64,000 bases of DNA, from the NCBI GenBank assembly GCA_013151035.1, contig JAADJB010000053.1, forward strand, positions 5,939 to 69,938, in the 5' to 3' direction. Under the pieces are notes generated by a model that did not search any database, was not told where the DNA came from, and saw only the letters and a program-made list of their open reading frames with translations. Origin of the DNA: Gammaproteobacteria bacterium (lineage in GTDB: Bacteria; Pseudomonadota; Gammaproteobacteria; JAADJB01). Position 1 is the stretch's first letter. Every line of letters begins with the position of its first letter. The position numbers and the translations under genes are program-made. Shown one piece after another: positions 38,434-51,989 of the stretch.

Positions 38434-40636
<2,203 letters not shown>

Positions 40637-41500: not shown

Positions 41501-42502
41501 ATGAGCCAAGCCCTCAAGACATCGAACCAAACCCTGTCCCTTGATCAAATTCGTGAATTAATCGGGTCAGACATACAGGCTGTGGATAAGTTAATCCTTG
41601 ATAGCTTGCACTCCAATGTCCTGTTAATCAACCAAATCGGACACTATATTGTAAACAGTGGGGGCAAACGCCTGCGTCCCTTGCTTGTTCTACTCGCTGC
41701 CCGCACCTGTAATTACACAGGTAACAACCATATTGATCTTGCTGCGATTATTGAATTTATCCACACTGCCACTCTGCTACACGATGATGTTGTCGATGCC
41801 TCGGATATGCGGCGGGGTAATGAAACCGCCAATGCCATCTGGGGTAATGAGGCCAGTGTATTAGTTGGCGATTTTCTCTATTCCCGTGCCTTTGAAATGA
41901 TGGTAAAGACTGGCAGTATGCGCATTATGGAGATCATGGCACATACCACTAACACCATTGCCGAGGGTGAGGTGATGCAATTACTCAATTGCAATGATGC
42001 AGATACCACGGAAGCACGTTACATGGACGTGGTACAACGCAAGACTGCAATCTTGTTTGAAGCCGCTTCTCGTATCGGAGCCATCCTGGGCAAACAGGAC
42101 ACACCAATGGAACAGGCACTAGCTAACTATGGTCGCCATCTGGGGCTCGCCTTTCAGCTCATTGATGACGCACTGGATTACAGTGCTGACCCTGAGGAAA
42201 CAGGTAAAAATCTAGGCGATGACCTGGCTGAAGGCAAGCCCACCCTACCCCTGATCTACGCTATGCGTACCGGCAACAAGGAACAACAACAGATTATTCG
42301 TCATGCCATTGAACAAGGTGGCCACGAACATATTGACTCGGTACAACAAATCATCAAGGCGACCAACGCCATCAAATATACCACTCAGAGTGCCCATGAA
42401 CAGGCAGAGAAGGCGATACACGCCTTGACCACACTACCCGAATCACCCTATAAGGATGCCCTGCACACCCTTGCAGAGTTTTCGGTTCATCGCTCCTATT
42501 AA
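41501..42502 (+). CDS. ispB: octaprenyl-diphosphate synthase
   Basis: Trans-prenyltransferase DDxxD motifs (LLHDDVVDASDMRRG and FQLIDDALDY). It is divergent from rplU-rpmA, as in E. coli. Confidence 0.9.
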   Translation: MSQALKTSNQTLSLDQIRELIGSDIQAVDKLILDSLHSNVLLINQIGHYIVNSGGKRLRPLLVLLAARTCNYTGNNHIDLAAIIEFIHTATLLHDDVVDASDMRRGNETANAIWGNEASVLVGDFLYSRAFEMMVKTGSMRIMEIMAHTTNTIAEGEVMQLLNCNDADTTEARYMDVVQRKTAILFEAASRIGAILGKQDTPMEQALANYGRHLGLAFQLIDDALDYSADPEETGKNLGDDLAEGKPTLPLIYAMRTGNKEQQQIIRHAIEQGGHEHIDSVQQIIKATNAIKYTTQSAHEQAEKAIHALTTLPESPYKDALHTLAEFSVHRSY

Positions 42503-42510
42503 AAACGATT
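42415..42510 (+). repeat. direct repeat A, the last ~85 nt of ispB plus stop and 8 nt; left boundary of the islet
   Basis: About 86% identical to 49149-49245 when aligned by eye, with one 1-nt indel. Confidence 0.75.
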
Positions 42511-42645
42511 GCCCGGAGGAGATTGAATCCGACATCAAAGCGGCGTAATATCCTGCTAGAAGCTAGATTTTAGAAAAGTAGGCTGCTATGTGCATGACAT
42601 AAACTCAGCTGACTTTCCCGTATCAATAGCTCTACGAGATACTGA

Positions 42646-44853
42646 ATGAAACGCTATAACCACTTGTTATTATTTTGTATTTTATTGTCTGCAGAAACTT
42701 TAGCAGCAGCGGGGGACAACGGAGCAGGGATAGATCTCTGGCAAATATCCGGTAGTAATACTTTACGCTATGATTATTACAATAACTCTGGTGACATTGC
42801 GGCATCACCCTATCGTTTCAGTAATACACAGATTTACGATGAGTTTAATCTCAATTTCAAGCGGCAACTATCACCCTATAACCGGCTACAAGGCAATGTC
42901 AGTGGCTTATTTAATGATTCATTATATCGCAGCCGTTTTCAGGGTGGCAGTATAGAACGCTTCAGCTTGAAACAGGAAAATGGAGCAGTTAATCTGCCGT
43001 ACCGTGCCGAAGTCGGTGACTTATTTGCCTTTCAGAGTTTTCGTACCATCCAGCGTACTCTGAAGGGCGCACAGATTGAACTGCAACCTGATTTGGCTAC
43101 CGATACCCAACACTCTATCATAGTCTTTACCGGTAGTGCCTCAGCAGATTGGCGTGATATCAAATCTACGGATGGCTGGAGCAGTGGTATTTCCTGGTTA
43201 GCACAAGGTTCTGCCTGGGGCAAGCTTGCGGCCAATTTTCTCAACAATTACAAGAGCACAAATGCAACAACATTAACCGCTTCAACACAGCAGACGATAT
43301 ATAGCCTTGCCTACGAAAATCAGCCGCAGTGGTTTGGTCAAGCACTGACGCTTGAAGGAGAAGCGGGTTATTTTAATGGTGATCATGCTGACATTGCTGG
43401 TGTGGGTAGCGGCAAAGACAAGCAAGGCAGTGCGCTGTTCGCACAAATATCAGGCCGCCCTACTACATTGCCTGCACTGAATTACCGTCTTCGTTACGAA
43501 TCCTACGATCAGGATTATCGTCCTGATACCGCCTCGATTCAGCCAGACCGTCTCTCCAGAGAGGGTCATTTGTCCTGGCGTTTTAACAATGGCCTAACAT
43601 TACGCGGCCGACGGCAAAATTTTTATAGCAACAAGGGTACCGTCAACCCGCTGACAACCGATGTCTATGGCCTTAATCTTAGCGGGCCATTTTCAATTGG
43701 AAACGTATCCCCCCTGTCAGGCAATATTGATGCCTTCAAACAAACAGCAGAGAGTCGTAACCGTGCCACGATTACCGATACCCGAGTGGTCAATATAAAT
43801 GTCAGTCAAAGCCTGAGTCGGGATATTTCTATTCGCGGCGGATTTTTTTATTCGAATATCAATAACAAAGCTATTCCACAAAACCTCTCCATTACGCGAC
43901 AATATCTAACCGGTCTCAATTTCAAGGCTCAATGGCGGGGTTTCTCCGGCACTATATCTCCAGCATTTGTAATAAGGAGGTTGGATAACTCAGGCAAACG
44001 CACTAGCTGGGAGCGCAATCCCACCTTGAGCCTCAATGCCAGTCGTGGCCCACATACACTCTCATTTTCTCACGCGGTGCTGAGTCAGGGAGGAGCAGCC
44101 GCAGGCTTGGGGCAGTTAACTCGGACTAGTGGGATGAATTATCGCTATACACAAAAAAGCTATACTTTTGGGCTCGAAGGTAACTGGTATCAACGCAACC
44201 CCGATAGTCCCCTTAGCCGTAACACGGATGCCTGGCGTATTGGTGCTTACTGGACGTTAAACTTTGATAAACCAGTAAAGCAGGTCATCGCGGGGTCGTT
44301 AGCTGCGTCATCATCAGGAATGCGGGCTGTCGCACCATCATCACGACTAGCGCTTGATCTCACAAGACTGACACCAGGGATGATGGAAGGAGAGGCACGT
44401 AAGATCGCAATAAATAGTGATTTGGGTAAACCGACAAAACAACCGGGGCTATTGGTCTGGTTTAACCGCATTTTCCGTGATCTGGATCAAAGCCAACGAT
44501 TGGTCATACAACTGTTAAATAGTGAGCTCGCGCGTTCAGCGATTATTATTGATTTTGATGACGTGGGTGACAGTCAAAGTGTTGAACAAACCTTTGAACG
44601 AGTACGCCAGCAATTATTGTTGCGCTATGGTACTCCTGACTCATTTTTCGAGCAGGGAGATTTTACTGCGAACATAGCACTGGAATTATCTTCCGAGCGT
44701 TTTTATCGTAGCATGCAATGGGAAATAGCAGATGGTGTACTGCGCTTTGGCATACCACGTAGGCTGGATGGACAAGTACGGATGGAAATACAGTTTGCAC
44801 GTGAATTCCCGACTATTAAAGAGTCTCTATGGAGTCTGGAGGAATTACAATGA
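42646..44853 (+). CDS. exported hypothetical protein, probable outer-membrane beta-barrel with about 190-aa C-terminal extension
   Basis: Signal peptide MKRYNHLLLFCILLSAETLAAA. Long run of alternating amphipathic beta-strand-like segments rich in Y/R/N/G, with an internal OMP-like terminal-strand signature (RIGAYWTLNF) near residue 545, followed by a further non-barrel-like domain. Confidence 0.5.
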   Translation: MKRYNHLLLFCILLSAETLAAAGDNGAGIDLWQISGSNTLRYDYYNNSGDIAASPYRFSNTQIYDEFNLNFKRQLSPYNRLQGNVSGLFNDSLYRSRFQGGSIERFSLKQENGAVNLPYRAEVGDLFAFQSFRTIQRTLKGAQIELQPDLATDTQHSIIVFTGSASADWRDIKSTDGWSSGISWLAQGSAWGKLAANFLNNYKSTNATTLTASTQQTIYSLAYENQPQWFGQALTLEGEAGYFNGDHADIAGVGSGKDKQGSALFAQISGRPTTLPALNYRLRYESYDQDYRPDTASIQPDRLSREGHLSWRFNNGLTLRGRRQNFYSNKGTVNPLTTDVYGLNLSGPFSIGNVSPLSGNIDAFKQTAESRNRATITDTRVVNINVSQSLSRDISIRGGFFYSNINNKAIPQNLSITRQYLTGLNFKAQWRGFSGTISPAFVIRRLDNSGKRTSWERNPTLSLNASRGPHTLSFSHAVLSQGGAAAGLGQLTRTSGMNYRYTQKSYTFGLEGNWYQRNPDSPLSRNTDAWRIGAYWTLNFDKPVKQVIAGSLAASSSGMRAVAPSSRLALDLTRLTPGMMEGEARKIAINSDLGKPTKQPGLLVWFNRIFRDLDQSQRLVIQLLNSELARSAIIIDFDDVGDSQSVEQTFERVRQQLLLRYGTPDSFFEQGDFTANIALELSSERFYRSMQWEIADGVLRFGIPRRLDGQVRMEIQFAREFPTIKESLWSLEELQ

Positions 44854-47800
44854 ACGGGCGATTATCTGTAAATAAATGCGCGCAGCAGGTATTGATTGCG
44901 ATACTATTGTTACTGACCATCTCGATCGCTTTTATCGGCACTAGTATAGTTCAAGCTGCTGATTTCGCTGATGCGCCAGACTCTGACCTAAATAAGTGTC
45001 GCAAGTATTATCAGCCTAGCTGTGAATATCATTACCCTACTCTGGAAGTCAATAATGGTGCTCGTCATTTGAATACCCGTGCGGCATGGCTTGGCAACTC
45101 TGTTTCAGATGAAACAGCACCCAAATCAAGTGATGACGACGATTTTCTATCGACCCAGAAGATTTACAATGCCACATGGAATGGATCACTTTATATCAAT
45201 GTGCTGATTGATCACAACAGTGATGGCGACTGGGACGATCCCGGTGAATGGGTTGTTCAGAACAATAGCTATGACATTCCTAAGGGAAAATCACAAAGCA
45301 TCGGCATCGCTGGTCCGCCGCCGGGTAAGTGGTACCGAATCACCTTAACCGGAAGACCCGTAACCGCCTATACAGGCAAAGGCATTTTTTCAATTGGGGA
45401 AACCGAAGATTACTTGATTGGCGCCCAAAAGAAAAAGGGGGGGGAGAAGGACTCACTTCCGTTTCCACCACTGGAATTTTGTGGGGATGGCATTATCAAC
45501 CTTCCCGGTGAACAGTGTGATCCGCCCGGTGGCGGTTGTCCGGCTGGTCTGGCCTGCAACATAAACTGCCTGTGTGACGGTGAAGAGGGACTACCGCCTA
45601 TACCTGGTGCTTCTCCAGGTTCATCTTCTCCAGGCCTATCTTCTCCAGGCTCGGTTTCTCCAGATTCACTATTAGCACCTCAAAAACTGAAAGGACTAGA
45701 CCGTATCACTACCGGAAGCGGTCGGTGTCGATTACCTTGGCAAGGTGGCACAACCCCATGCGATGAGTGCATAAAAGGTCATGCGGGACAGAATTATGCC
45801 AAAGTATGTTATCAGCATGAGAATGAAATTGAAAAAAACCGTTTGCATGCTGAGGAACAGACGATAAAAATAAACCTACTCTATAATGCATACAATCATG
45901 AAAAAAATCGTTTAAAAAATAAAAACAGCGATCCTCTCAAGGGGATTGAATTACGAAACATCTATAAGAAATGGGCTAAAGAGAAACCATCTTACGATAG
46001 AAAGATTAAGGCATGGAAAAAAACCAAGGAGAATTGGAAGCAAGTAAAACCTGCTGTCATTGAAGACTCATTGGAAATGGCTCTCAAAAAATGCAAGGAT
46101 GAAGGGATTTGCGGCAACAGCAGTAAACAAGTTAAAACTGAAGAGCCTCTGCAAGAAGATGAACGCTGTACATCTCTGATCAAGCCCAAGACCTTTAAAA
46201 ACAACCTTGCACTGTTAAACGAAGCCAATCGAAATAACCTGGGAGCAGGAAAAGCAAGTAAGGTCTTAATGAATGGAATGATTGCGAAGGCAATGAATCC
46301 ATATTCTATTATTCTAGATGCAAAAAAGATTGGCAGCCGGTCACTAACTGCTGAATTTGATTCACCTGGGAAAAAAATAAAAACAAGTATCACCAAAATC
46401 AATGATTGTGATTCAGTTGTTTCCACAGGAATACGAAAAAAACATTATGAGTTTACTCTCATTATTGAAAAGTATGAAATTGATAAAACAATTAGTTTCT
46501 TTAATCCAACTGAAGCAATTATTAACATAGCTGATCTTGCTTCAGCAGCTACATCTATTCCCATACAATTAACCTGGATCAGCATAAATGGAGCTATGAA
46601 TGCTATTGATAAAGAATGGGCTGCGGGTGGATTTGAAGTCCTGGATTTTGCGTTTACAGCAGGGGGAGCTTTAGTTAAGGGAAGCCGTGCTGTTGCCGAA
46701 GGTGGAAAAGCTGTTGGTCATATTGGTTTGAAAACAATTAAGAAAGGATCTAAAACGGTAGTTAAATCGACTATCAAACAAAGGTTAAAAAGTGAATTAT
46801 CTTCAAGTGCCACTGATATTTTAACGCCAAAGGGTACGGGTAATAAAGAAAATGTTAATAACAAATCAATGTATATTGATCAGGTTAAATCTGATATAAA
46901 ATCCCGGCTTGATAAAAATCCACTGATCAATACCGTAAAGGCGGAAAAGCAGAGCATTTTGGGGCGGCTTAAACGAGGATTGCTAGGGGAACACTATATT
47001 CATCTTAAAGGAACGATAGAAATCCCTGTGGCTTATTGCATAAAGCTTAAAAACACATCTACTGAGTACAGCAGCGATATTATAACCAATTGTGAGAATA
47101 TCAAAGAACCTGTTCTGGAGGATACTATAGTAACAGGTGATGACAGCCTACCAACTGAAAGCGGTTCAAAAGACGTGAATGGCTTGAATGGTTTGTTTAA
47201 TATGCAGCGTATCAACCCGTGTCCTGCTTGTAGCAAAACTTATGCAGACTTTGCTGCTATACAGGCAAAAGCAAAACCACTAAAGGAAAAGATTATTCGC
47301 CAATTTGGTAGTGTTCGAGAGTGGCGAATAATGCTGGGGACAGCGGGTAAAATATTCGGCGGTTCTGCCGGTCAATTAAGGGAAAAAGCGATCAATTTGA
47401 AGAATGAAGTGGATTCGCTCAATAAACAATCAAACAAGACGCTTCTAAGTTTAACCCTATGCATGGGGAATTTATGTACTGGTACTAACAAAACCGCTTT
47501 AGAAGACCTGCCGATTGAAAGCGATTCAAATTGCCCTGATTGTGGAATTGAACTGGTGCAGGTTATAGCGGGTAGAGGGAATAACCCCTTGAGTCCGACA
47601 GACCCTGTTTCAGCGGGAACGACTAGTACCATTGTCGATACGCCCGCTACGGGTGGCGGCGGGGTTTCTGGCGACACGATACCGCCAGTCATTTCTGCGC
47701 CTGCCTCTATTACGGTAGCGGCAACGGATATGAATGGAATATCTGTGGCCAATGCAACCATTCAGGCTTTTCTTGCTGCGGCAACGGCGACAGATAATGT

Positions 47801-48638
47801 TGCTGTGGTAGGCTCGGTGACAAACAATGCACCACTGGTTTTTCCGGTGTTACCGAATATGCCCACAGGCAACACAACGAATGTGATTTTTTCTGCCGTC
47901 GATGCAGTAGGCAATATTGGTACCTCTACCAGTAGCGTGACTGTGGTGGATCAATCAGCACCTGGCCTGACCTTGCCAACATCAATTACCGTGACGGCAT
48001 CTTCTGGTGCTACAAGTGTTCCTGCTAGTAACGCCACTATAAGCACGTTTTTAAATGCTGCGCAAGCCCTTGATGACGTAGATGGCATGATAGCTGCACC
48101 TGCAGTGTCACCTCCAGCCAATTTCTCAGTAGGCACGACGACAGTGACCTTTAAAGCTACAGACGGCGCAGGAAATGTGCAAACAGGTACCCGTACGGTT
48201 ACCGTATTAGCATCGGCAGGATTGCCAGCGATAATAGATGGACGTTGGCAAATGACATGTGATTTGGCATTTGGTTCTGCAGCGGATGCCACTACTGTCA
48301 ATACATTGATGGGCACGCCAATGCCAAGCAATCCAATGTTGGTGATCACGGGGAACAGTAGCAATTTTGTAATAACCACTTTACCTCCAGGCGATTTTGC
48401 AGCAGGACCAGCGACAGAAAATCTTGCGACGACAGAAAATGATCTGATGCTGGGTTTTGCCAGTACCATAATATCCAGCAATGGTCATACCTTTAATGTT
48501 GGCATGGGAGAAACATGGACTTTCGATTTCCCTGTAGCGGGTCAACACGGACTACAATTATCATGGCAGATATTTACTCAAGCGCCTGACCCGATTATCA
48601 GCGTGCAGTACAATTGCAGCGGAAATAAAGCACCATGA
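44850..48638 (+). CDS. large exported surface protein: GEVED domain, Myxococcus-type Cys-rich repeat, Pro/Ser linker, Lys-rich helical region, two HYR-like repeats
   Basis: ATGA overlap with the upstream gene; N-terminal signal/anchor. DFADAPDSD...GARHL...DDDDF...IDHNSDGDWDDPGEW...WYRITL...GETEDYLIG fits the GEVED domain pattern. CGDGIINLPGEQCDPPGGGCPAGLACNINC fits the Myxococcus cysteine-rich repeat. Two ~85-aa repeats (TIPPVISAPASITVAATD... and LPTSITVTASSG...GTTTVTFKATDGAGNV) fit the HYR domain. Confidence 0.6.
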   Translation: MNGRLSVNKCAQQVLIAILLLLTISIAFIGTSIVQAADFADAPDSDLNKCRKYYQPSCEYHYPTLEVNNGARHLNTRAAWLGNSVSDETAPKSSDDDDFLSTQKIYNATWNGSLYINVLIDHNSDGDWDDPGEWVVQNNSYDIPKGKSQSIGIAGPPPGKWYRITLTGRPVTAYTGKGIFSIGETEDYLIGAQKKKGGEKDSLPFPPLEFCGDGIINLPGEQCDPPGGGCPAGLACNINCLCDGEEGLPPIPGASPGSSSPGLSSPGSVSPDSLLAPQKLKGLDRITTGSGRCRLPWQGGTTPCDECIKGHAGQNYAKVCYQHENEIEKNRLHAEEQTIKINLLYNAYNHEKNRLKNKNSDPLKGIELRNIYKKWAKEKPSYDRKIKAWKKTKENWKQVKPAVIEDSLEMALKKCKDEGICGNSSKQVKTEEPLQEDERCTSLIKPKTFKNNLALLNEANRNNLGAGKASKVLMNGMIAKAMNPYSIILDAKKIGSRSLTAEFDSPGKKIKTSITKINDCDSVVSTGIRKKHYEFTLIIEKYEIDKTISFFNPTEAIINIADLASAATSIPIQLTWISINGAMNAIDKEWAAGGFEVLDFAFTAGGALVKGSRAVAEGGKAVGHIGLKTIKKGSKTVVKSTIKQRLKSELSSSATDILTPKGTGNKENVNNKSMYIDQVKSDIKSRLDKNPLINTVKAEKQSILGRLKRGLLGEHYIHLKGTIEIPVAYCIKLKNTSTEYSSDIITNCENIKEPVLEDTIVTGDDSLPTESGSKDVNGLNGLFNMQRINPCPACSKTYADFAAIQAKAKPLKEKIIRQFGSVREWRIMLGTAGKIFGGSAGQLREKAINLKNEVDSLNKQSNKTLLSLTLCMGNLCTGTNKTALEDLPIESDSNCPDCGIELVQVIAGRGNNPLSPTDPVSAGTTSTIVDTPATGGGGVSGDTIPPVISAPASITVAATDMNGISVANATIQAFLAAATATDNVAVVGSVTNNAPLVFPVLPNMPTGNTTNVIFSAVDAVGNIGTSTSSVTVVDQSAPGLTLPTSITVTASSGATSVPASNATISTFLNAAQALDDVDGMIAAPAVSPPANFSVGTTTVTFKATDGAGNVQTGTRTVTVLASAGLPAIIDGRWQMTCDLAFGSAADATTVNTLMGTPMPSNPMLVITGNSSNFVITTLPPGDFAAGPATENLATTENDLMLGFASTIISSNGHTFNVGMGETWTFDFPVAGQHGLQLSWQIFTQAPDPIISVQYNCSGNKAP

Positions 48639-49162
48639 AGATCATTTTTGTAAGATATTGCATGGTATGCCTATTGGCAATAGTGGCCGGGGCTAGTCCG
48701 GGACTTAACCTGAAGGCGAGTGAATTTCGCGCATTTAGCCTGATTCGTTCACCATCCAGTGAACGTAGCAACCTGGTTTCGCAGTCTTCAGTTGCGTTAA
48801 AAACTGATATTCAGGTTGTATCAAGCAAGATGGTGCAGGATGCTGTAAGCAAGCTGGTTGCAGCCTGGAATAGCAATGGCCTAAGTACAATAGTCACTGA
48901 TAGCTTTATTGATAAATCTCGTTTGCTGGATTCTGTTAATAGTCAGATACCCCGCGATGCACAATTACGCGTGCTTGCCATTCAAAATACACGCACCCTT
49001 AATCAACATGTAGCTGATTCACCGAGTGGCAAGCTCCTGGTGAGTTTGGTTTCTACAACTTTGCGTACACAACTTGAGTTTAATGATCCTGCTCAGGGTT
49101 TTCAACGTCGGGAAGGGACAAATGAATATATTCTGCGTATTAAGCAGCGATACACGCCCTGA
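48635..49162 (+). CDS. small secreted hypothetical protein (175 aa)
   Basis: ATGA overlap with the upstream gene; signal peptide MKIIFVRYCMVCLLAIVAGASPG; no recognisable family. Confidence 0.5.
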   Translation: MKIIFVRYCMVCLLAIVAGASPGLNLKASEFRAFSLIRSPSSERSNLVSQSSVALKTDIQVVSSKMVQDAVSKLVAAWNSNGLSTIVTDSFIDKSRLLDSVNSQIPRDAQLRVLAIQNTRTLNQHVADSPSGKLLVSLVSTTLRTQLEFNDPAQGFQRREGTNEYILRIKQRYTP

Positions 49163-49245
49163 CTACACTACCCGAATCCACCCTACAAGGATGCATTGCA
49201 CAGCCTTGCAGAATTTTCAGTCAATCGATCTTATTAAAAACGATA
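49149..49245 (+). repeat. direct repeat B, a relic ispB 3-prime end; right boundary of the islet
   Basis: Apart from one frameshift, the relic translates as IHALTTLPES / PYKDALHSLAEFSVNRSY*, against IHALTTLPESPYKDALHTLAEFSVHRSY* at the end of the real IspB. The stop codon of the convergent TonB-dependent receptor lies inside the relic. Confidence 0.75.
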
Positions 49246-51237
49246 AGCGGCGTTTATATATACATAACGCCCCGGCTCATTAATCAACATCACATCACCC
49301 GTAGCATCCGCTAACAGGGTCAAATCCTTATAGGTATTGGTTGTACTATAGGTCTTGTTCATCACATTATCGATCCCCAGAGTCAGGGCAAGATGCCTAC
49401 TCAATGTATGCTGCAATTTCAGATTTAATACAGCATAGGAATCAATCGCCTGCTCTCCATTATCGACATCGAAATACCTCCATTCATCCATAGCCACCAA
49501 CTCAATTATTGCACTACTTCTCAATGCATAATCATAATTCAAGGTAAGATTAACCTTTAACGGAGGGATCTCGGCAAGATCTGTATCTGTCTGCCCCGTC
49601 AGTGTCTGGTTCTTCTGTCCACGCTGCCAGGCAAGACCAAAATCCAGATAAACCTCGTCATTAATAAACCAGGAACCACGAACATCAAGACCATAAATGG
49701 TGGCATCAACATTTTCAAAATTATTACTGGCATTACCGGCGTTGTAATAGATGAAGTCATTCAACCAGCTATGAAACAGCCTGACCTTAAGAGTTAAATC
49801 CTGGTAGTTCTTCTCTATACCAAAATCAAGCTCGGTATTGGTTGTTTTATTCAATGTAGGTGTACCAACGGTTACATTCATCATTGAACGAAAATAGAGC
49901 TCTCTGGCATCCGGTACGCGGGAGGCCCTGCCAATACCAGAAAAATACCGCGTACTACTATCAGGCTGATATGAAGTAAAGACAAAGGCACTCAATCCAT
50001 CATAATCCCTTGATGAATGCACACCGGTTTGAGGGACAATCGAGGTATTATCATAACGCACACCAAGCTTCGTACTCAGGCTGAAGTATCTCTTCTCAAT
50101 CTCGGCAAATACGGCTCTGTTTCCGGTATTGACATCATCAATACTCTTTCTACCCGTTATACCCGCCTTGGTACCCTTTCCGATATAGGTTCCATCCCAG
50201 TTTCGCAGGCTGGTATCCAGCCCGACAACAATCCGGGTATCCTTATCAAGAACAAACTTGTTACTGATCTTTAATCCTCTCATATCACTTTCCAGAGAAT
50301 TAGCCAATTCATCAACAGAGTTAATACCTGATGCCATTCTATAAAAAGTGGACATCGGATGTTCGACCGTTGACCGATAGATCTGTATATCAAGTGAACG
50401 GGAATAAACCCCCAGGTTCCTGATTGAATAATCCAGATCCAGCATATCTGAGTTATCATAAAGTGCATCCATCTTGCTGGAGGGATAAAGCACATTATCA
50501 CTACGATTGGCGGTATAACTCAACTTCAGATCCTGATCTTCAGTCATATCCAGATATAACTTACCCATAACAACCTGCTTCTTATAGGCATCCATACCAG
50601 CATACTGTGCCTGATAGCGTGGATTCATACCCGCCATTGCGGTAGGATTGAGATGACTAATCTGATCAGAAAAATTATTACCATCGCCGTCCTCGTACTG
50701 CTCACTGGTCTCCCTGGACATTCCCAGCAAGACCCTGGCCTTGTCATTACCACCACTCACCGTCGCTGATAATTTCCGGTAATCCCAACTCCCTGCATTC
50801 AAACTCACCTCACCCTTAAAGGCCTGTGAAGGGTTTCTGGTACTAATCCTTACCGCACCACTCAAAGTACCTGAGTTTTCCACATCATAAGGACCTTCAA
50901 TAATCTCGATACCATCAATTGTATTATTCAGTACATAAGAGATCGGTGGATCCATTCGATTAGGACCAGCCCCATAGATCCTGGCACCATCAATCAGGAC
51001 ATTGATATTGTCCTTTTTCTGCCCACGCAAAATAATATCATTAGCGATCCCGCTTCTACGCACCAGTGATATACCAGGAAGGTTCCGACTCAGGGCCTCA
51101 GCCAGATCTGCCGATTTCACCTCCTCGCCACTCACATCAGCGAGTCTTGTACTCTCAACCATGATAGTTGCTTCACCCATACCGGCTGCCTGTAACTCAA
51201 TCAGCCACAATAATAATAGATAGATACCTTTTTTCAT
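49234..51237 (-). CDS. TonB-dependent outer-membrane receptor
   Basis: 667 aa. Signal peptide; plug domain with a TonB-box-like region; 22-strand barrel pattern; C-terminal ...YINAAYRF ending in aromatic-x-F. Confidence 0.85.
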   Translation of the reverse strand: MKKGIYLLLLWLIELQAAGMGEATIMVESTRLADVSGEEVKSADLAEALSRNLPGISLVRRSGIANDIILRGQKKDNINVLIDGARIYGAGPNRMDPPISYVLNNTIDGIEIIEGPYDVENSGTLSGAVRISTRNPSQAFKGEVSLNAGSWDYRKLSATVSGGNDKARVLLGMSRETSEQYEDGDGNNFSDQISHLNPTAMAGMNPRYQAQYAGMDAYKKQVVMGKLYLDMTEDQDLKLSYTANRSDNVLYPSSKMDALYDNSDMLDLDYSIRNLGVYSRSLDIQIYRSTVEHPMSTFYRMASGINSVDELANSLESDMRGLKISNKFVLDKDTRIVVGLDTSLRNWDGTYIGKGTKAGITGRKSIDDVNTGNRAVFAEIEKRYFSLSTKLGVRYDNTSIVPQTGVHSSRDYDGLSAFVFTSYQPDSSTRYFSGIGRASRVPDARELYFRSMMNVTVGTPTLNKTTNTELDFGIEKNYQDLTLKVRLFHSWLNDFIYYNAGNASNNFENVDATIYGLDVRGSWFINDEVYLDFGLAWQRGQKNQTLTGQTDTDLAEIPPLKVNLTLNYDYALRSSAIIELVAMDEWRYFDVDNGEQAIDSYAVLNLKLQHTLSRHLALTLGIDNVMNKTYSTTNTYKDLTLLADATGDVMLINEPGRYVYINAAYRF

Positions 51238-51272: not shown

Positions 51273-51989
51273 TCAACTCAATTCAAAAATCATGGAATAA
51301 TTAACCAATACCGGTACCTCAATACTCTCGGGAGGCCTGGGAAATGGAGATGACTGTGTAACCGCATCCCCTGCAGCAGAACGCAATACTGAGTACCGAC
51401 CATCAACCAGCAGATCCTTTATGCTGCCATCCTCCATTAACCGGAAAGACACCTTGACTACATCCTCATAACCCCGTTTCCGCGCACTATGCGGGTAATA
51501 TCTGGCTGACTCAATAATGCGTAATATCGAAGCAAGGTAGACTTCCCTCATCTCATCACGAAAATCAGTCTGACTCACATCATCAAGCTCTACCATTGAC
51601 TCCATTGCAGTCAATAGTGGTGCTGCCACTGCCCGTTCAACAACAGGCTCCGCTAACTCTTCAGGTTCAGGAATCCATGACTGTTGCTGATCCATCGGTA
51701 CAAATACCTCAACAGGTACTAATTCAACCTGCTCCTGTATAGAACCACCTATCTTTTTATGCACAGGTATTACCGGGGCAGGTATCACGGGAGCAGGTAC
51801 TGACTCCATAACACTTATTGCCTGCATTCGTGGCTGTAGCATAATATCCAGTCGTACTCCGTAATCGGGGATTGACTTCGATACAGTGGAAGAAAAATAA
51901 AAGAACACCAATAAATGAATAAGCAACGATGTAACCATTGCCAAATCCCAGGGTTTGTCTCTCACAGCTTGAAAAACATGTACATTCAT
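51273..51989 (-). CDS. TonB-family energy transducer (C-terminal TonB domain)
   Basis: N-terminal TM anchor, Pro-rich spacer (PAPVIPAPVIPV) and a C-terminal TonB-like domain (YPHSARKRGYEDVVKVSFRLMEDGSI...). No exbBD adjacent. Confidence 0.7.
   Translation of the reverse strand: MNVHVFQAVRDKPWDLAMVTSLLIHLLVFFYFSSTVSKSIPDYGVRLDIMLQPRMQAISVMESVPAPVIPAPVIPVHKKIGGSIQEQVELVPVEVFVPMDQQQSWIPEPEELAEPVVERAVAAPLLTAMESMVELDDVSQTDFRDEMREVYLASILRIIESARYYPHSARKRGYEDVVKVSFRLMEDGSIKDLLVDGRYSVLRSAAGDAVTQSSPFPRPPESIEVPVLVNYSMIFELS

What the first reader, a model, noticed from the sequence alone, without database searches (positions are those of the whole stretch)
42415..49245. 6.7-kb islet at the ispB 3-prime end, bounded by diverged direct repeats of the ispB terminus
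The last ~85 nt of ispB plus its stop codon (42415-42510) recur at 49149-49245, with about 86% identity and one indel. Apart from that frameshift, the downstream copy still translates as an IspB C-terminus with conservative substitutions (…PYKDALHSLAEFSVNRSY*). This is the arrangement left by an element that integrates into the 3-prime end of a gene and brings its own copy of the displaced terminus (attL/attR-like). It could equally be a homologous-recombination scar from a donor with a diverged ispB. Three tightly coupled genes (ATGA overlaps) lie between the repeats, all for exported proteins with no housekeeping homologs. The centre of the insert is conspicuously AT-rich. No integrase or transposase is present, so this may be an old, stabilised insertion. 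The stop codon of the convergent TonB-dependent receptor falls inside the relic copy, so receptor, relic and islet have coexisted for some time.
Basis: seen in the sequence. Interest (0 to 1): 0.85.

Follow-up and report, generated by a model that had tools for sequence, protein, structure and literature searches.

The report
Gene islet displacing the ispB terminus
A 6.6-kb block of three imported outer-membrane genes sits in the tail of the essential gene ispB, between the working ispB end and a discarded second copy from another lineage, and there is no integrase in sight; the layout is a known kind of insertion scar, but its cargo is an uncharacterised gene module found at similar scars elsewhere.

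Summary
42413-42509 (the last 88 nt of ispB plus 7 nt) recurs at 49147-49244: 86.7% identity, one 1-nt indel, blastn E about 1e-25.

Ten of the 12 substitutions are synonymous in the ispB frame (dS 0.69, dN 0.03). The two copies therefore diverged as working ispB ends in different lineages, and the downstream relic was disabled only recently. This argues against an "old, stabilised" insertion.

The relic's stop overlaps the stop of the TonB-dependent receptor (TTAA), which marks the former ispB/receptor junction.

The islet carries no recombinase. Its cargo is a conserved, uncharacterised module:
- a 26-strand outer-membrane barrel (closest solved structure: MtrB);
- a hypervariable surface protein with GEVED and HYR domains;
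- an exported NTF2-like protein.

The barrel and the NTF2-like gene co-occur in about 70 of 91 loci from other organisms.

The same scar occurs elsewhere:
- this module after purL, followed by a purL-end relic (L083);
- this module between tRNA-Lys and a partial tRNA-Lys copy that abuts an integrase (L108);
- unrelated cargo behind ispB, followed by an ispB-end relic, in a mussel symbiont (L057).

Best reading: an e14/icd-like displaced-terminus insertion by an element without its own integrase. The main rival is homology-facilitated illegitimate recombination. No close relative exists in the databases, so the empty-site test could not be done.

The parts
41501..42502 (+). ispB (octaprenyl diphosphate synthase), intact, 333 aa
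   Evidence: NCBIfam NF008140 scores 441 bits against a cut-off of 412; Pfam polyprenyl_synt 2e-85
42413..42509 (+). Left repeat: the functional last 29 codons of ispB, its stop, and 7 nt (AAACGAT)
42510..42645 (+). Non-coding spacer between the left repeat and ORF1, and left junction of the islet. No convincing promoter or terminator, and no similarity to other cassette loci.
42646..44853 (+). ORF1: exported 735-aa outer-membrane protein, a 26-strand beta-barrel (residues 32-542) plus a C-terminal alpha/beta domain. No Pfam family.
44850..48638 (+). ORF2: large exported, adhesin-like protein. The longest ORF starts at 44829; the ATGA-coupled start is at 44850. It has a signal sequence, a GEVED domain (aa 122-197), a Cys-rich CGDG..EQCD stretch, a Pro/Ser linker, a Lys/Asn-rich variable middle and HYR/Ig-like repeats (aa 1041-1126).
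   Evidence: Pfam. Only the N-terminal and HYR parts match cargo proteins at other loci. Start confirmed.
45500..47500 (+). AT-rich variable middle of ORF2: GC 0.40, GC3 0.32, strongest compositional outlier in the window
48635..49162 (+). ORF3: exported 175-aa protein with an NTF2-like fold, the constant partner of the barrel. Its last four codons and stop (CGA TAC ACG CCC TGA) are read from the relic.
49146..49150 (+). Right junction. DNA homology to the ORF3 family runs up to 49149/50 and homology to ispB starts at 49146/7, giving a 3-4 nt overlap (GCGA).
   Evidence: together
49147..49244 (+). Right repeat: displaced, frameshifted relic of an ispB terminus (29 codons, stop at 49235-49237, then 7 nt)
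49234..51237 (-). TonB-dependent receptor, intact, ending ...AAYRF*. Its last three codons and stop lie in the relic, and its stop overlaps the relic's ispB stop (TTAA).
   Evidence: Pfam Plug plus TonB_dep_Rec_b-barrel; sequence
51273..51989 (-). TonB-like protein, partner of the receptor. Flanking host gene, not part of the islet.
   Evidence: Pfam TonB_C 2e-9

Best explanation
The segment 42510-49146 is a horizontally acquired islet that entered the last 88 nt of ispB through recombination involving a second ispB terminus from a different lineage.

Before the event, ispB and the TonB-dependent receptor converged with overlapping stop codons. After it, one terminus completes ispB. The other is a 98-nt non-functional relic that still abuts the receptor.

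I think the most likely mechanism is conservative site-specific integration of a small circular element, as in prophage e14 at icd/icdC. The element's attachment site would have contained an ispB-end sequence. The recombinase would have been supplied in trans or lost afterwards, as in a CIME-like, cis-mobilisable islet.

The cargo is a co-translated three-gene outer-membrane module. It consists of a 26-strand barrel, a hypervariable adhesin-like exported protein, and an exported NTF2-like partner. By analogy with MtrB/MtrA and LptD/LptE, I infer that the barrel and its partner export or display the variable protein.

Shown: the repeat; the coding-type divergence of the two copies; both junctions; the absence of a recombinase in cis; the conservation of the module; recurrence of the same scar at other loci.

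Inferred: the recombinase-dependent mechanism; which copy is the foreign one; the function of the module.

Confidence is about 0.85 that this is an acquired insertion with a displaced terminus, and about 0.45 for the site-specific mechanism specifically.
For: 1. The repeat is highly significant and derives from ispB.

2. Ten of 12 substitutions are synonymous, giving dS 0.69, dN 0.03 and dN/dS 0.05. None of 20,000 random placements gave 2 or fewer non-synonymous changes. Duplication in place followed by neutral decay of the relic is rejected at P = 0.003. Both termini were therefore coding for most of their divergence, in separate lineages.

3. The relic's ispB stop overlaps the stop of the intact receptor, so the relic marks the former ispB/receptor junction.

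4. All three islet genes have GC3 below the window mean, and ORF2 has the lowest GC3 of 49 genes. The middle of ORF2 is the strongest compositional outlier in the window.

5. The cargo moves between genomes. Homologues of ORF1 and ORF3 lie together in about 70 of 91 loci, in unrelated chromosomal contexts and in two circularly permuted gene orders.

6. The same scar occurs at other loci:
- L083: the cassette follows purL, and the last 42 nt of purL recur after it (81% identity, E 2e-6; WMRLFRNARSWVG* against WLRLFRNARKWVS*).
- L108/L136: the cassette lies between tRNA-Lys and a 205-nt, 86%-identical partial copy, which is followed directly by a tyrosine integrase (PF00589, 6e-30). This is the tandem layout of a cis-mobilisable element next to an autonomous one.
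- L057: unrelated cargo behind ispB is followed by an ispB-end relic (LEILVRFSLQRIY*) that is 36-37/45 identical to the ispB ends of related genomes.

7. The repeat copies differ by 13% (window), 19% (L083) and 27% (L057). This is much more than RecA-dependent anchoring tolerates well. A recombinase needs identity only in a short core, and identical blocks of 12-13 nt are present.

8. The e14/icd/icdC precedent has the same layout (PMC13626634).
Against: - No recombinase gene lies in or beside the islet, nor in the L083 and L057 inserts.
- No integrase specific for the ispB end was seen in 66 other ispB loci. The integrases found near ispB sit next to a tRNA-Pro gene.
- The islet is very compact: a 136-nt spacer on the left and no spare DNA on the right, with no pseudogene debris.
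- The right junction falls within the last codons of ORF3 and shows a 3-4 nt microhomology. That is the signature of illegitimate joining, not of a recombinase site.
- Only 2 of about 24 non-redundant cassette loci with both flanks available show flanking repeats.
- Codon usage weakly suggests that the relic, not the functional end, is the imported copy (9 of 10 sites). This is the opposite of the e14 layout.
- No excised circle and no empty site could be looked for.
Confidence: 0.45

Rival explanations
1. Homology-facilitated illegitimate recombination. Linear DNA from a related donor already carried ispB followed by the cassette. It paired with the recipient's ispB at one end. Its other end, at the 3' end of ORF3, was joined illegitimately at a short microhomology 88 nt before the recipient's ispB stop. 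The recipient's old terminus was thereby pushed downstream.
For: - No recombinase in any of the three integrase-less examples.
- The right junction has a 3-4 nt microhomology (GCGA) and replaces only the last codons of ORF3.
- The islet carries no spare DNA.
- The coding-type divergence of the two termini fits a donor and a recipient allele.
- The 7 nt after the functional stop match the end of the receptor, as expected if the donor shared this synteny.
- The same model has been proposed for displaced 'orphan' modules in T6SS, Rhs and CDI loci (PMC5361080).
Against: - The copies differ by 13-27%, which strongly depresses RecA-dependent anchoring, and the process is already rare (PMC5361080).
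- The illegitimate join must lie upstream of the end of the homologous anchor, which is an unusual geometry.
- The model does not explain how the cassette first came to lie behind ispB in the donor.
- The L108 case sits in a classical tRNA/integrase context.
Confidence: 0.3
2. Duplication in place followed by allele replacement. An insertion first created two identical copies of the 97-nt segment. Ordinary homologous recombination later replaced the functional ispB, or its 3' part, with a diverged allele from a relative.
For: This also yields mostly synonymous differences. Homologous replacement of core genes is common (general knowledge).
Against: - It needs two events, plus an unexplained mechanism for a 97-nt target duplication.
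- The relic would have to stay nearly undecayed through both events.
- The same two-step history would have to recur at purL (L083) and at ispB in L057.
Confidence: 0.08
3. Partial assembly artefact. The contig comes from a single metagenome-assembled genome. If two related populations share an identical cassette, the assembler may have joined the left flank of one to the right flank of the other. The 13% divergence would then be between populations, not within one genome.
For: Only one contig (97,233 bp, proteins NOX10070.1-NOX10073.1) carries these genes, and there is no independent copy. Mobile cassettes are typical places for such joins (general knowledge).
Against: - Neither junction can be produced by mis-assembly. 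The ORF3/relic junction shares only 3-4 nt with ispB, so the architecture is real in at least one population.
- GC3 and tetranucleotide usage are alike on both sides of the islet.
- Diverged repeats are seen independently in L083, L108 and L057.
Confidence: 0.07

Closest known systems
Prophage e14 (and phage 21) integrated in the 3' end of icd in E. coli K-12, with the icdC pseudogene
   Same: An element sits in the 3' end of a housekeeping gene. The gene stays intact, and a short diverged copy of its terminus lies at the far end of the insert. The differences between the two copies are mostly synonymous or conservative (PMC13626634).
   Different: e14 encodes its own integrase and excisionase next to icd, is a 15-kb prophage, and is known to excise. 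Here there is no recombinase, the insert is 6.6 kb of outer-membrane genes, the target is ispB, and excision has not been tested.
Cis-mobilisable elements (CIMEs) and tandem island arrays at tRNA genes or gene 3' ends
   Same: Bounded by att-like direct repeats derived from the target's 3' end, with no recombination genes of their own. L108 shows exactly this layout for the same cassette, next to an integrase-bearing neighbour.
   Different: No cognate autonomous element or integrase was found for the ispB site. What I know of CIMEs comes from my own knowledge of streptococcal ICESt-type elements and was not checked in the literature here.
Displaced 'orphan' 3' modules in Rhs, CDI and T6SS effector-immunity loci, attributed to homology-facilitated illegitimate recombination
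   Same: Incoming DNA with homology to the upstream gene takes over its 3' end and pushes the old end downstream as a relic. No recombinase is involved (PMC5361080).
   Different: In those systems the displaced 3' ends encode variable toxin tips and immunity genes, and they form arrays under diversifying selection. Here the gene is an essential enzyme, both termini encode the same protein end, and the new DNA is an unrelated operon.
MtrB/MtrA and LptD/LptE (26-strand outer-membrane barrels that enclose a partner protein)
   Same: ORF1 is predicted to be a 26-strand barrel. MtrB is the best structural match in two searches. ORF1 is always encoded with a small exported partner.
   Different: About 10% sequence identity and TM-scores of only 0.41-0.45. 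There are no cytochromes and no LPS-transport genes. The partner has an NTF2-like fold, unlike MtrA or LptE. ORF1 also has an extra C-terminal alpha/beta domain.

Membership tests
Integrative element in a gene's 3' end that supplies a replacement terminus (e14/icd type) | Direct repeats made of the target gene's 3' end, one copy completing the gene and one displaced | tested here: met
   42413-42509 against 49147-49244, E about 1e-25. Both copies read as IspB ends.
Integrative element in a gene's 3' end that supplies a replacement terminus (e14/icd type) | The two termini are alleles from different lineages (coding-type divergence) | tested here: met
   10 synonymous and 2 non-synonymous substitutions, dN/dS 0.05; decay in place rejected at P = 0.003
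Integrative element in a gene's 3' end that supplies a replacement terminus (e14/icd type) | Element-encoded tyrosine or serine recombinase next to one att site | tested here: not met
   No such domain in ORF1-3. No integrase-like sequence in the 64-kb window by tblastn.
Integrative element in a gene's 3' end that supplies a replacement terminus (e14/icd type) | Excision to a circle and regeneration of an empty site | not testable with these tools
   Needs the reads of the source metagenome or a culture. No close relative is available.
Cis-mobilisable element (CIME) | att-like repeats at both ends and no recombination or transfer genes inside | tested here: met
Cis-mobilisable element (CIME) | A related autonomous element whose integrase uses the same site | tested here: not met
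   None beside ispB in 66 other ispB loci; the integrases there flank a tRNA-Pro gene. For the same cassette at tRNA-Lys (L108), such a neighbour does exist. The rest of the source genome could not be searched.
Insertion by homology-facilitated illegitimate recombination | One junction inside homologous sequence, the other at a microhomology of a few nucleotides | tested here: inconclusive
   The right junction shows a 3-4 nt overlap of ORF3-family and ispB homology. The homologous crossover cannot be located without the parental alleles.
Insertion by homology-facilitated illegitimate recombination | Donor and recipient anchors similar enough for RecA pairing | tested here: inconclusive
   The copies are 87% identical in the 97 nt that can be compared, and the longest identical block is 13 nt. 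The upstream part of the donor allele is unknown.
XerCD-dependent integrating elements (IMEX) | Flanked by dif-like 28-bp sites at the chromosome dimer resolution site | not tested
   By eye, the repeat is coding sequence of ispB with no resemblance to the E. coli dif sequence as I recall it. No formal search was made.
MtrB-type or LptD-type 26-strand barrels | 26 transmembrane beta-strands | tested here: met
   26 strands between residues 32 and 542 in the AlphaFold2 model, pLDDT 83
MtrB-type or LptD-type 26-strand barrels | Sequence-family membership and cognate partner (MtrA/MtrC cytochromes, or LptE) | tested here: not met
   No Pfam or NCBIfam hit. About 10% identity to MtrB. The partner is NTF2-like. 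The module contains no cytochrome or Lpt genes.

The most novel reading that the evidence does not exclude
Small islets without an integrase form a recurrent class. They insert into the 3' ends of essential genes and tRNAs (ispB twice, purL, tRNA-Lys) and bring a replacement terminus with them. They would move by a recombinase acting in trans or by a mechanism not yet described; the circularly permuted gene orders of the cassette hint at a circular intermediate. One common cargo is an undescribed outer-membrane system in which a 26-strand barrel and an NTF2-like partner export or display a hypervariable adhesin.
Probability: 0.15. Interest if true: 0.75.

Novelty: new variant of a known kind. 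Interest (0 to 1): 0.5.

Why it matters
- **A dating method for insertion scars.** The ratio of synonymous to non-synonymous differences between a gene's end and its displaced copy shows whether the copy is foreign and how long it has been dead. Here it overturns the "old insertion" reading.
- **A new insertion point.** The tail of an essential isoprenoid gene, ispB, has been used as an insertion point in two unrelated lineages with different cargo. I found no report of this in four literature searches on related terms.
- **An open mechanistic question.** Three of the four scars have no recombinase nearby. How do integrase-less islets get into gene ends: by borrowed recombinases or by illegitimate recombination? 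The source community's reads could answer this for this locus.
- **An uncharacterised cargo family.** The module has 521 representative barrels among 1.84 billion proteins and no Pfam family. Its predicted 26-strand barrel, NTF2-like partner and hypervariable adhesin-like protein suggest an undescribed way to put large proteins on the surface of Gram-negative cells.

Tried and rejected
- **Empty-site test.** 80 ispB loci from species-representative genomes and the best IspB hits among 5.8 billion proteins contain nothing closer than 72-73% identity. None has the receptor or the cassette beside ispB. The test is not possible with current data.
- **Independent copy of the contig.** None is on record.
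- **Chance similarity.** Rejected (E about 1e-25, and homology to other ispB ends).
- **Duplication in place with neutral decay.** Rejected at P = 0.003.
- **Phage or defence-system origin.** No viral contig encodes the barrel. No PHROGs or PADLOC hits.
- **Hidden recombinase.** None in ORF1-3 or, by tblastn with the L108 integrase, anywhere in the window.
- **Conserved non-coding arm shared by cassettes.** The 42503-42660 spacer matches no other cassette locus.
- **ispB-specific integrases.** The integrases close to ispB in L016 and L060 turned out to sit next to a tRNA-Pro(CGG) gene that follows ispB there.
- **L109 flanking repeat.** The 128-nt repeat pairs the 3' end of a 442-aa ORF downstream of the barrel with sequence just upstream of the ORF3-like gene. 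I read it, without a test, as paralogous cargo-gene ends and not an att-like scar.
- **L088 tRNA-Glu.** It lies next to the cassette, but no repeat was found.
- **Deciding which terminus is foreign.** Codon usage gives only a weak hint that the relic fits islet usage (9 of 10 sites). In L057 both copies are equally distant from relatives.
- **AFDB fold search.** The library was unavailable.
- **Sequence search of ORF2 against the PDB.** Nothing found.


Full report

Yes. ispB is 41501-42502 (NCBIfam octaprenyl diphosphate synthase, 441 bits against a cut-off of 412). Its last 88 nt, including the stop at 42500-42502, plus the next 7 nt (42413-42509) recur at 49147-49244.

MAFFT and the repeat finder (families D1 and D5) both show this. 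blastn gives 86.7% identity over 98 columns with a single 1-nt gap. E ranges from 5e-18 to 3e-25 depending on settings, and nothing else within several kb approaches that score. The downstream copy also aligns to the ispB 3' ends of distant genomes (65-70% over about 90 nt, E down to 1.5e-8), so it is an ispB fragment.

- ORF1/ORF2 and ORF2/ORF3 overlap by ATGA.
- The stop of the minus-strand TonB-dependent receptor (49234-49236) lies inside the relic.
- No integrase or transposase domain is present.
- The centre is AT-rich.

**2. What the two copies say about their history**

The repeat starts on a codon boundary of ispB. There are 12 substitutions. Ten are synonymous and two are conservative (Thr/Ser and His/Asn). 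Eight fall at third codon positions. This gives dS 0.69, dN 0.03 and dN/dS 0.05.

None of 20,000 random placements of 12 substitutions gave 2 or fewer non-synonymous changes. A model in which the segment was duplicated in place and the relic then decayed neutrally predicts about 59% non-synonymous differences. It is rejected at P = 0.003.

The two termini therefore spent most of their divergence as working ispB ends in different lineages. One of them is foreign to this genome.

The relic has since acquired one frameshift (an extra C near 49178) and at most two non-synonymous changes over about 65 sites. It stopped being coding only recently relative to that divergence.

**3. The junctions**

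*Right side.* In the relic, the ispB stop (49235-49237) and the receptor stop (49234-49236) overlap as TTAA. The receptor is intact and ends ...AAYRF*. The relic thus preserves a former arrangement in which ispB and the receptor converged with overlapping stops.

*Extent of the repeat.* The similarity continues for 7 nt past the ispB stop in both copies (AAACGAT). On the other strand these nucleotides are the receptor's last codons. Two readings are possible:
- both source genomes had this ispB/receptor arrangement; or
- the identical 13-nt block TATTAAAAACGAT is a crossover core.

*Right junction of the islet.* DNA homology to other ORF3-family genes runs up to 49149/50. Homology to ispB starts at 49146/7. 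ORF3-family proteins end 1-4 residues after a conserved KQR. ORF3 is therefore full length, but its last four codons and its stop are read from the relic. The join shows a 3-4 nt microhomology (GCGA).

*Left junction.* A 136-nt spacer (42510-42645) separates the repeat from ORF1. It has no convincing promoter or terminator and no similarity to other cassette loci.

**4. Composition**

The window has GC 0.467. ORF1 and both ends of the islet are at background in GC and tetranucleotide usage. Only 45.5-47.5 kb, the Lys/Asn-rich middle of ORF2, is strongly atypical: GC 0.40 (z -3.2) and tetranucleotide z 4.4, the highest in the window.

At third codon positions all three genes lie below the mean of the 46 other genes (0.459 +/- 0.039): ORF1 0.420, ORF2 0.369 (the lowest of 49) and ORF3 0.386. 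This is a modest foreign signal. It fits a donor of similar composition.

**5. The cargo**

*ORF2 (about 1,260 aa).* It has a signal sequence, a GEVED domain, a Cys-rich stretch, a Pro/Ser linker, the variable middle and HYR/Ig-like repeats. These features are typical of surface adhesins.

*Distribution.*
- A profile of the barrel family finds 521 cluster representatives among 1.84 billion proteins.
- Of 91 loci from other organisms that encode the barrel, about 70 also have an ORF3 homologue beside it. Most of the rest are short contigs.
- In 44 loci a large ORF (300-1,478 aa) of variable sequence directly precedes the ORF3-like gene.
- Two circularly permuted gene orders exist. The common one is large protein - NTF2-like - barrel. 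The order seen here is barrel - ... - large protein - NTF2-like.
- The module is absent from viral contigs and has no PHROGs or PADLOC hits.

*Function.* Function is inferred only. By analogy with MtrB/MtrA and LptD/LptE, I propose that the barrel and its small partner export or display the variable protein.

**6. The same scar elsewhere**

I screened cassette loci for direct repeats that bracket the module. 54 loci passed a loose filter. 29 (about 24 non-redundant) had the whole module with flanks on both sides. Two were positive.

- **L083.** The insert (a hydrolase gene plus the cassette, barrel first) follows purL. The last 42 nt of purL, including the stop, recur 30 nt after the ORF3-like gene and before pyrG. 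Identity is 81% and E is 2e-6. The two ends read WMRLFRNARSWVG* and WLRLFRNARKWVS*. No integrase lies within 10 kb.
- **L108 (and the near-identical L136).** The cassette lies between tRNA-Lys(CTT) and a 205-nt, 86%-identical copy of the tRNA's 3' half plus about 155 nt of downstream sequence. That copy is followed directly by a tyrosine integrase (PF00589, 6e-30). This is the tandem layout of a cis-mobilisable island next to an autonomous one.

Four loci have a tRNA gene directly beside the cassette region.

I then screened 66 other ispB loci for a second ispB end downstream. One was positive.

- **L057, the Bathymodiolus platifrons methanotrophic symbiont.** ispB ends ...LEVLARFSVQRNY*. A 45-nt copy lies 5.3 kb downstream and reads LEILVRFSLQRIY* (E 3.7e-5). 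It is 36-37/45 identical to the ispB ends of Methyloprofundus and Methylomonas relatives. The DNA between the two copies carries unrelated cargo: a multicopper oxidase, Phd/YefM-like and ParD-like antitoxins, and no integrase. None of that cargo is found beside ispB in the relatives.

The ispB tail has thus been used twice with different cargo, and the cassette has arrived at three different targets.

**7. Mechanism**

Any model must explain four things: two termini from different lineages, a relic contiguous with the old downstream gene, no recombinase in cis, and a microhomology junction at ORF3.

*(a) Site-specific integration, as with e14 at icd/icdC* (PMC13626634), by an element that lacks or has lost its integrase. 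It is favoured by:
- the high divergence of the repeat pairs (13%, 19% and 27%), which a recombinase tolerates but RecA pairing does not;
- the repeated use of gene 3' ends and tRNAs;
- the L108 layout.

It is weakened by:
- the absence of any recombinase in three of the four cases;
- the lack of an ispB-specific integrase in 66 loci, where the integrases near ispB flank a tRNA-Pro gene;
- the compactness of the islet.

*(b) Homology-facilitated illegitimate recombination*, as proposed for displaced orphan modules in T6SS, Rhs and CDI loci (PMC5361080). It explains the microhomology, the compactness and the absence of a recombinase. It fits the divergence and the required geometry less well. 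It also leaves open how the cassette first reached ispB.

*(c) Duplication in place followed by allele replacement* needs two events at each of several loci.

*(d) Chimeric assembly of two populations* could inflate the divergence. It cannot create the junctions.

I put these at 0.45, 0.30, 0.08 and 0.07.

Which terminus is the imported one is unresolved. At the ten synonymous differences, the functional copy fits host codon usage and the relic fits islet usage (9 of 10 sites). This is a weak hint, and it runs against the e14 layout.

**8. Comparison, novelty and score**

The architecture is a known kind: a displaced gene terminus at an insertion in a gene's 3' end. It fails the defining test of an autonomous integrative element because it encodes no recombinase. 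For a CIME, the cognate autonomous element was not found. I therefore file it as a new variant of a known kind.

What is new:
- ispB as a target;
- recurrence of the scar without integrases;
- the uncharacterised outer-membrane module as cargo.

A specialist would find it interesting but not startling. Interest: 0.5.

**Limits**

- The source is a single contig of a metagenome-assembled genome (proteins NOX10070.1-NOX10073.1).
- No close relative and no reads were available.
- Signal peptides were judged by eye.
- The function of the module rests on structure prediction and analogy.

Noticed in passing
L083:8194-8235 and L083:15845-15886: In an unrelated GC-rich genome (GCA_054014255.1), the same cassette family plus a hydrolase gene follows purL. 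The last 42 nt of purL recur after the cassette (81% identity, stop retained), with no integrase within 10 kb.
   Followed up: yes
L108:3742-3975 and L108:12415-13800 (same in L136): The cassette lies between tRNA-Lys(CTT) and a 205-nt, 86%-identical partial copy of the tRNA plus its downstream sequence. That copy abuts a tyrosine integrase gene, giving a tandem island layout.
   Followed up: yes
L057:9169-9213 and L057:14573-14617: In the Bathymodiolus platifrons methanotrophic symbiont, 5.3 kb of unrelated cargo (multicopper oxidase, two antitoxin-like genes) behind ispB is followed by a relic of the ispB end (LEILVRFSLQRIY*), again without an integrase.
   Followed up: yes
L016:8543-9772; L060:10982-12930; L065:10985-11061: In several other gammaproteobacteria a tRNA-Pro(CGG) gene lies about 10 nt after ispB. 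Tyrosine integrases sit next to it in L016 (with an HTH_17 excisionase-like gene) and L060. The region behind ispB is thus an island hotspot for a different reason.
   Followed up: partly
window:45500-47500: The Lys/Asn-rich middle of ORF2 is the strongest compositional outlier in the whole window (GC 0.40, GC3 0.32). It has no counterpart in cargo proteins at other loci, where only the N-terminal GEVED part and the HYR repeats match. This suggests module swapping inside the gene.
   Followed up: partly
L081-L171 (cassette loci): The cassette occurs in two circularly permuted gene orders: barrel first with the NTF2-like gene last, or large protein - NTF2-like - barrel. This would be expected from a circular intermediate opened at different points, but it could also be ordinary rearrangement.
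   Followed up: no
L095:9999-10646: A HigB/HigA toxin-antitoxin pair is inserted between the barrel gene and the rest of the cassette.
   Followed up: no
L091, L094 and proteins P0003, P0010, P0012, P0013: Some barrel homologues carry a 150-260 aa N-terminal extension with a SPOR (peptidoglycan-binding) domain. This places the N-terminus in the periplasm.
   Followed up: no
L117:1862-12208: One metagenome contig carries two copies of the barrel plus NTF2-like pair about 7.5 kb apart.
   Followed up: no
window:48000-53500: The receptor, TonB-like and sensor kinase genes to the right of the relic have slightly low GC (0.43-0.445, z about -1 to -1.6). The receptor's best NCBIfam match is the copper receptor family, well below its cut-off. 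None of 80 other ispB loci has this block next to ispB.
   Followed up: partly
window:38416-39603 and 39524-40612: The longest ORFs for proB and obg overlap by 80 nt on the minus strand. The listed proB start is probably over-extended.
   Followed up: no
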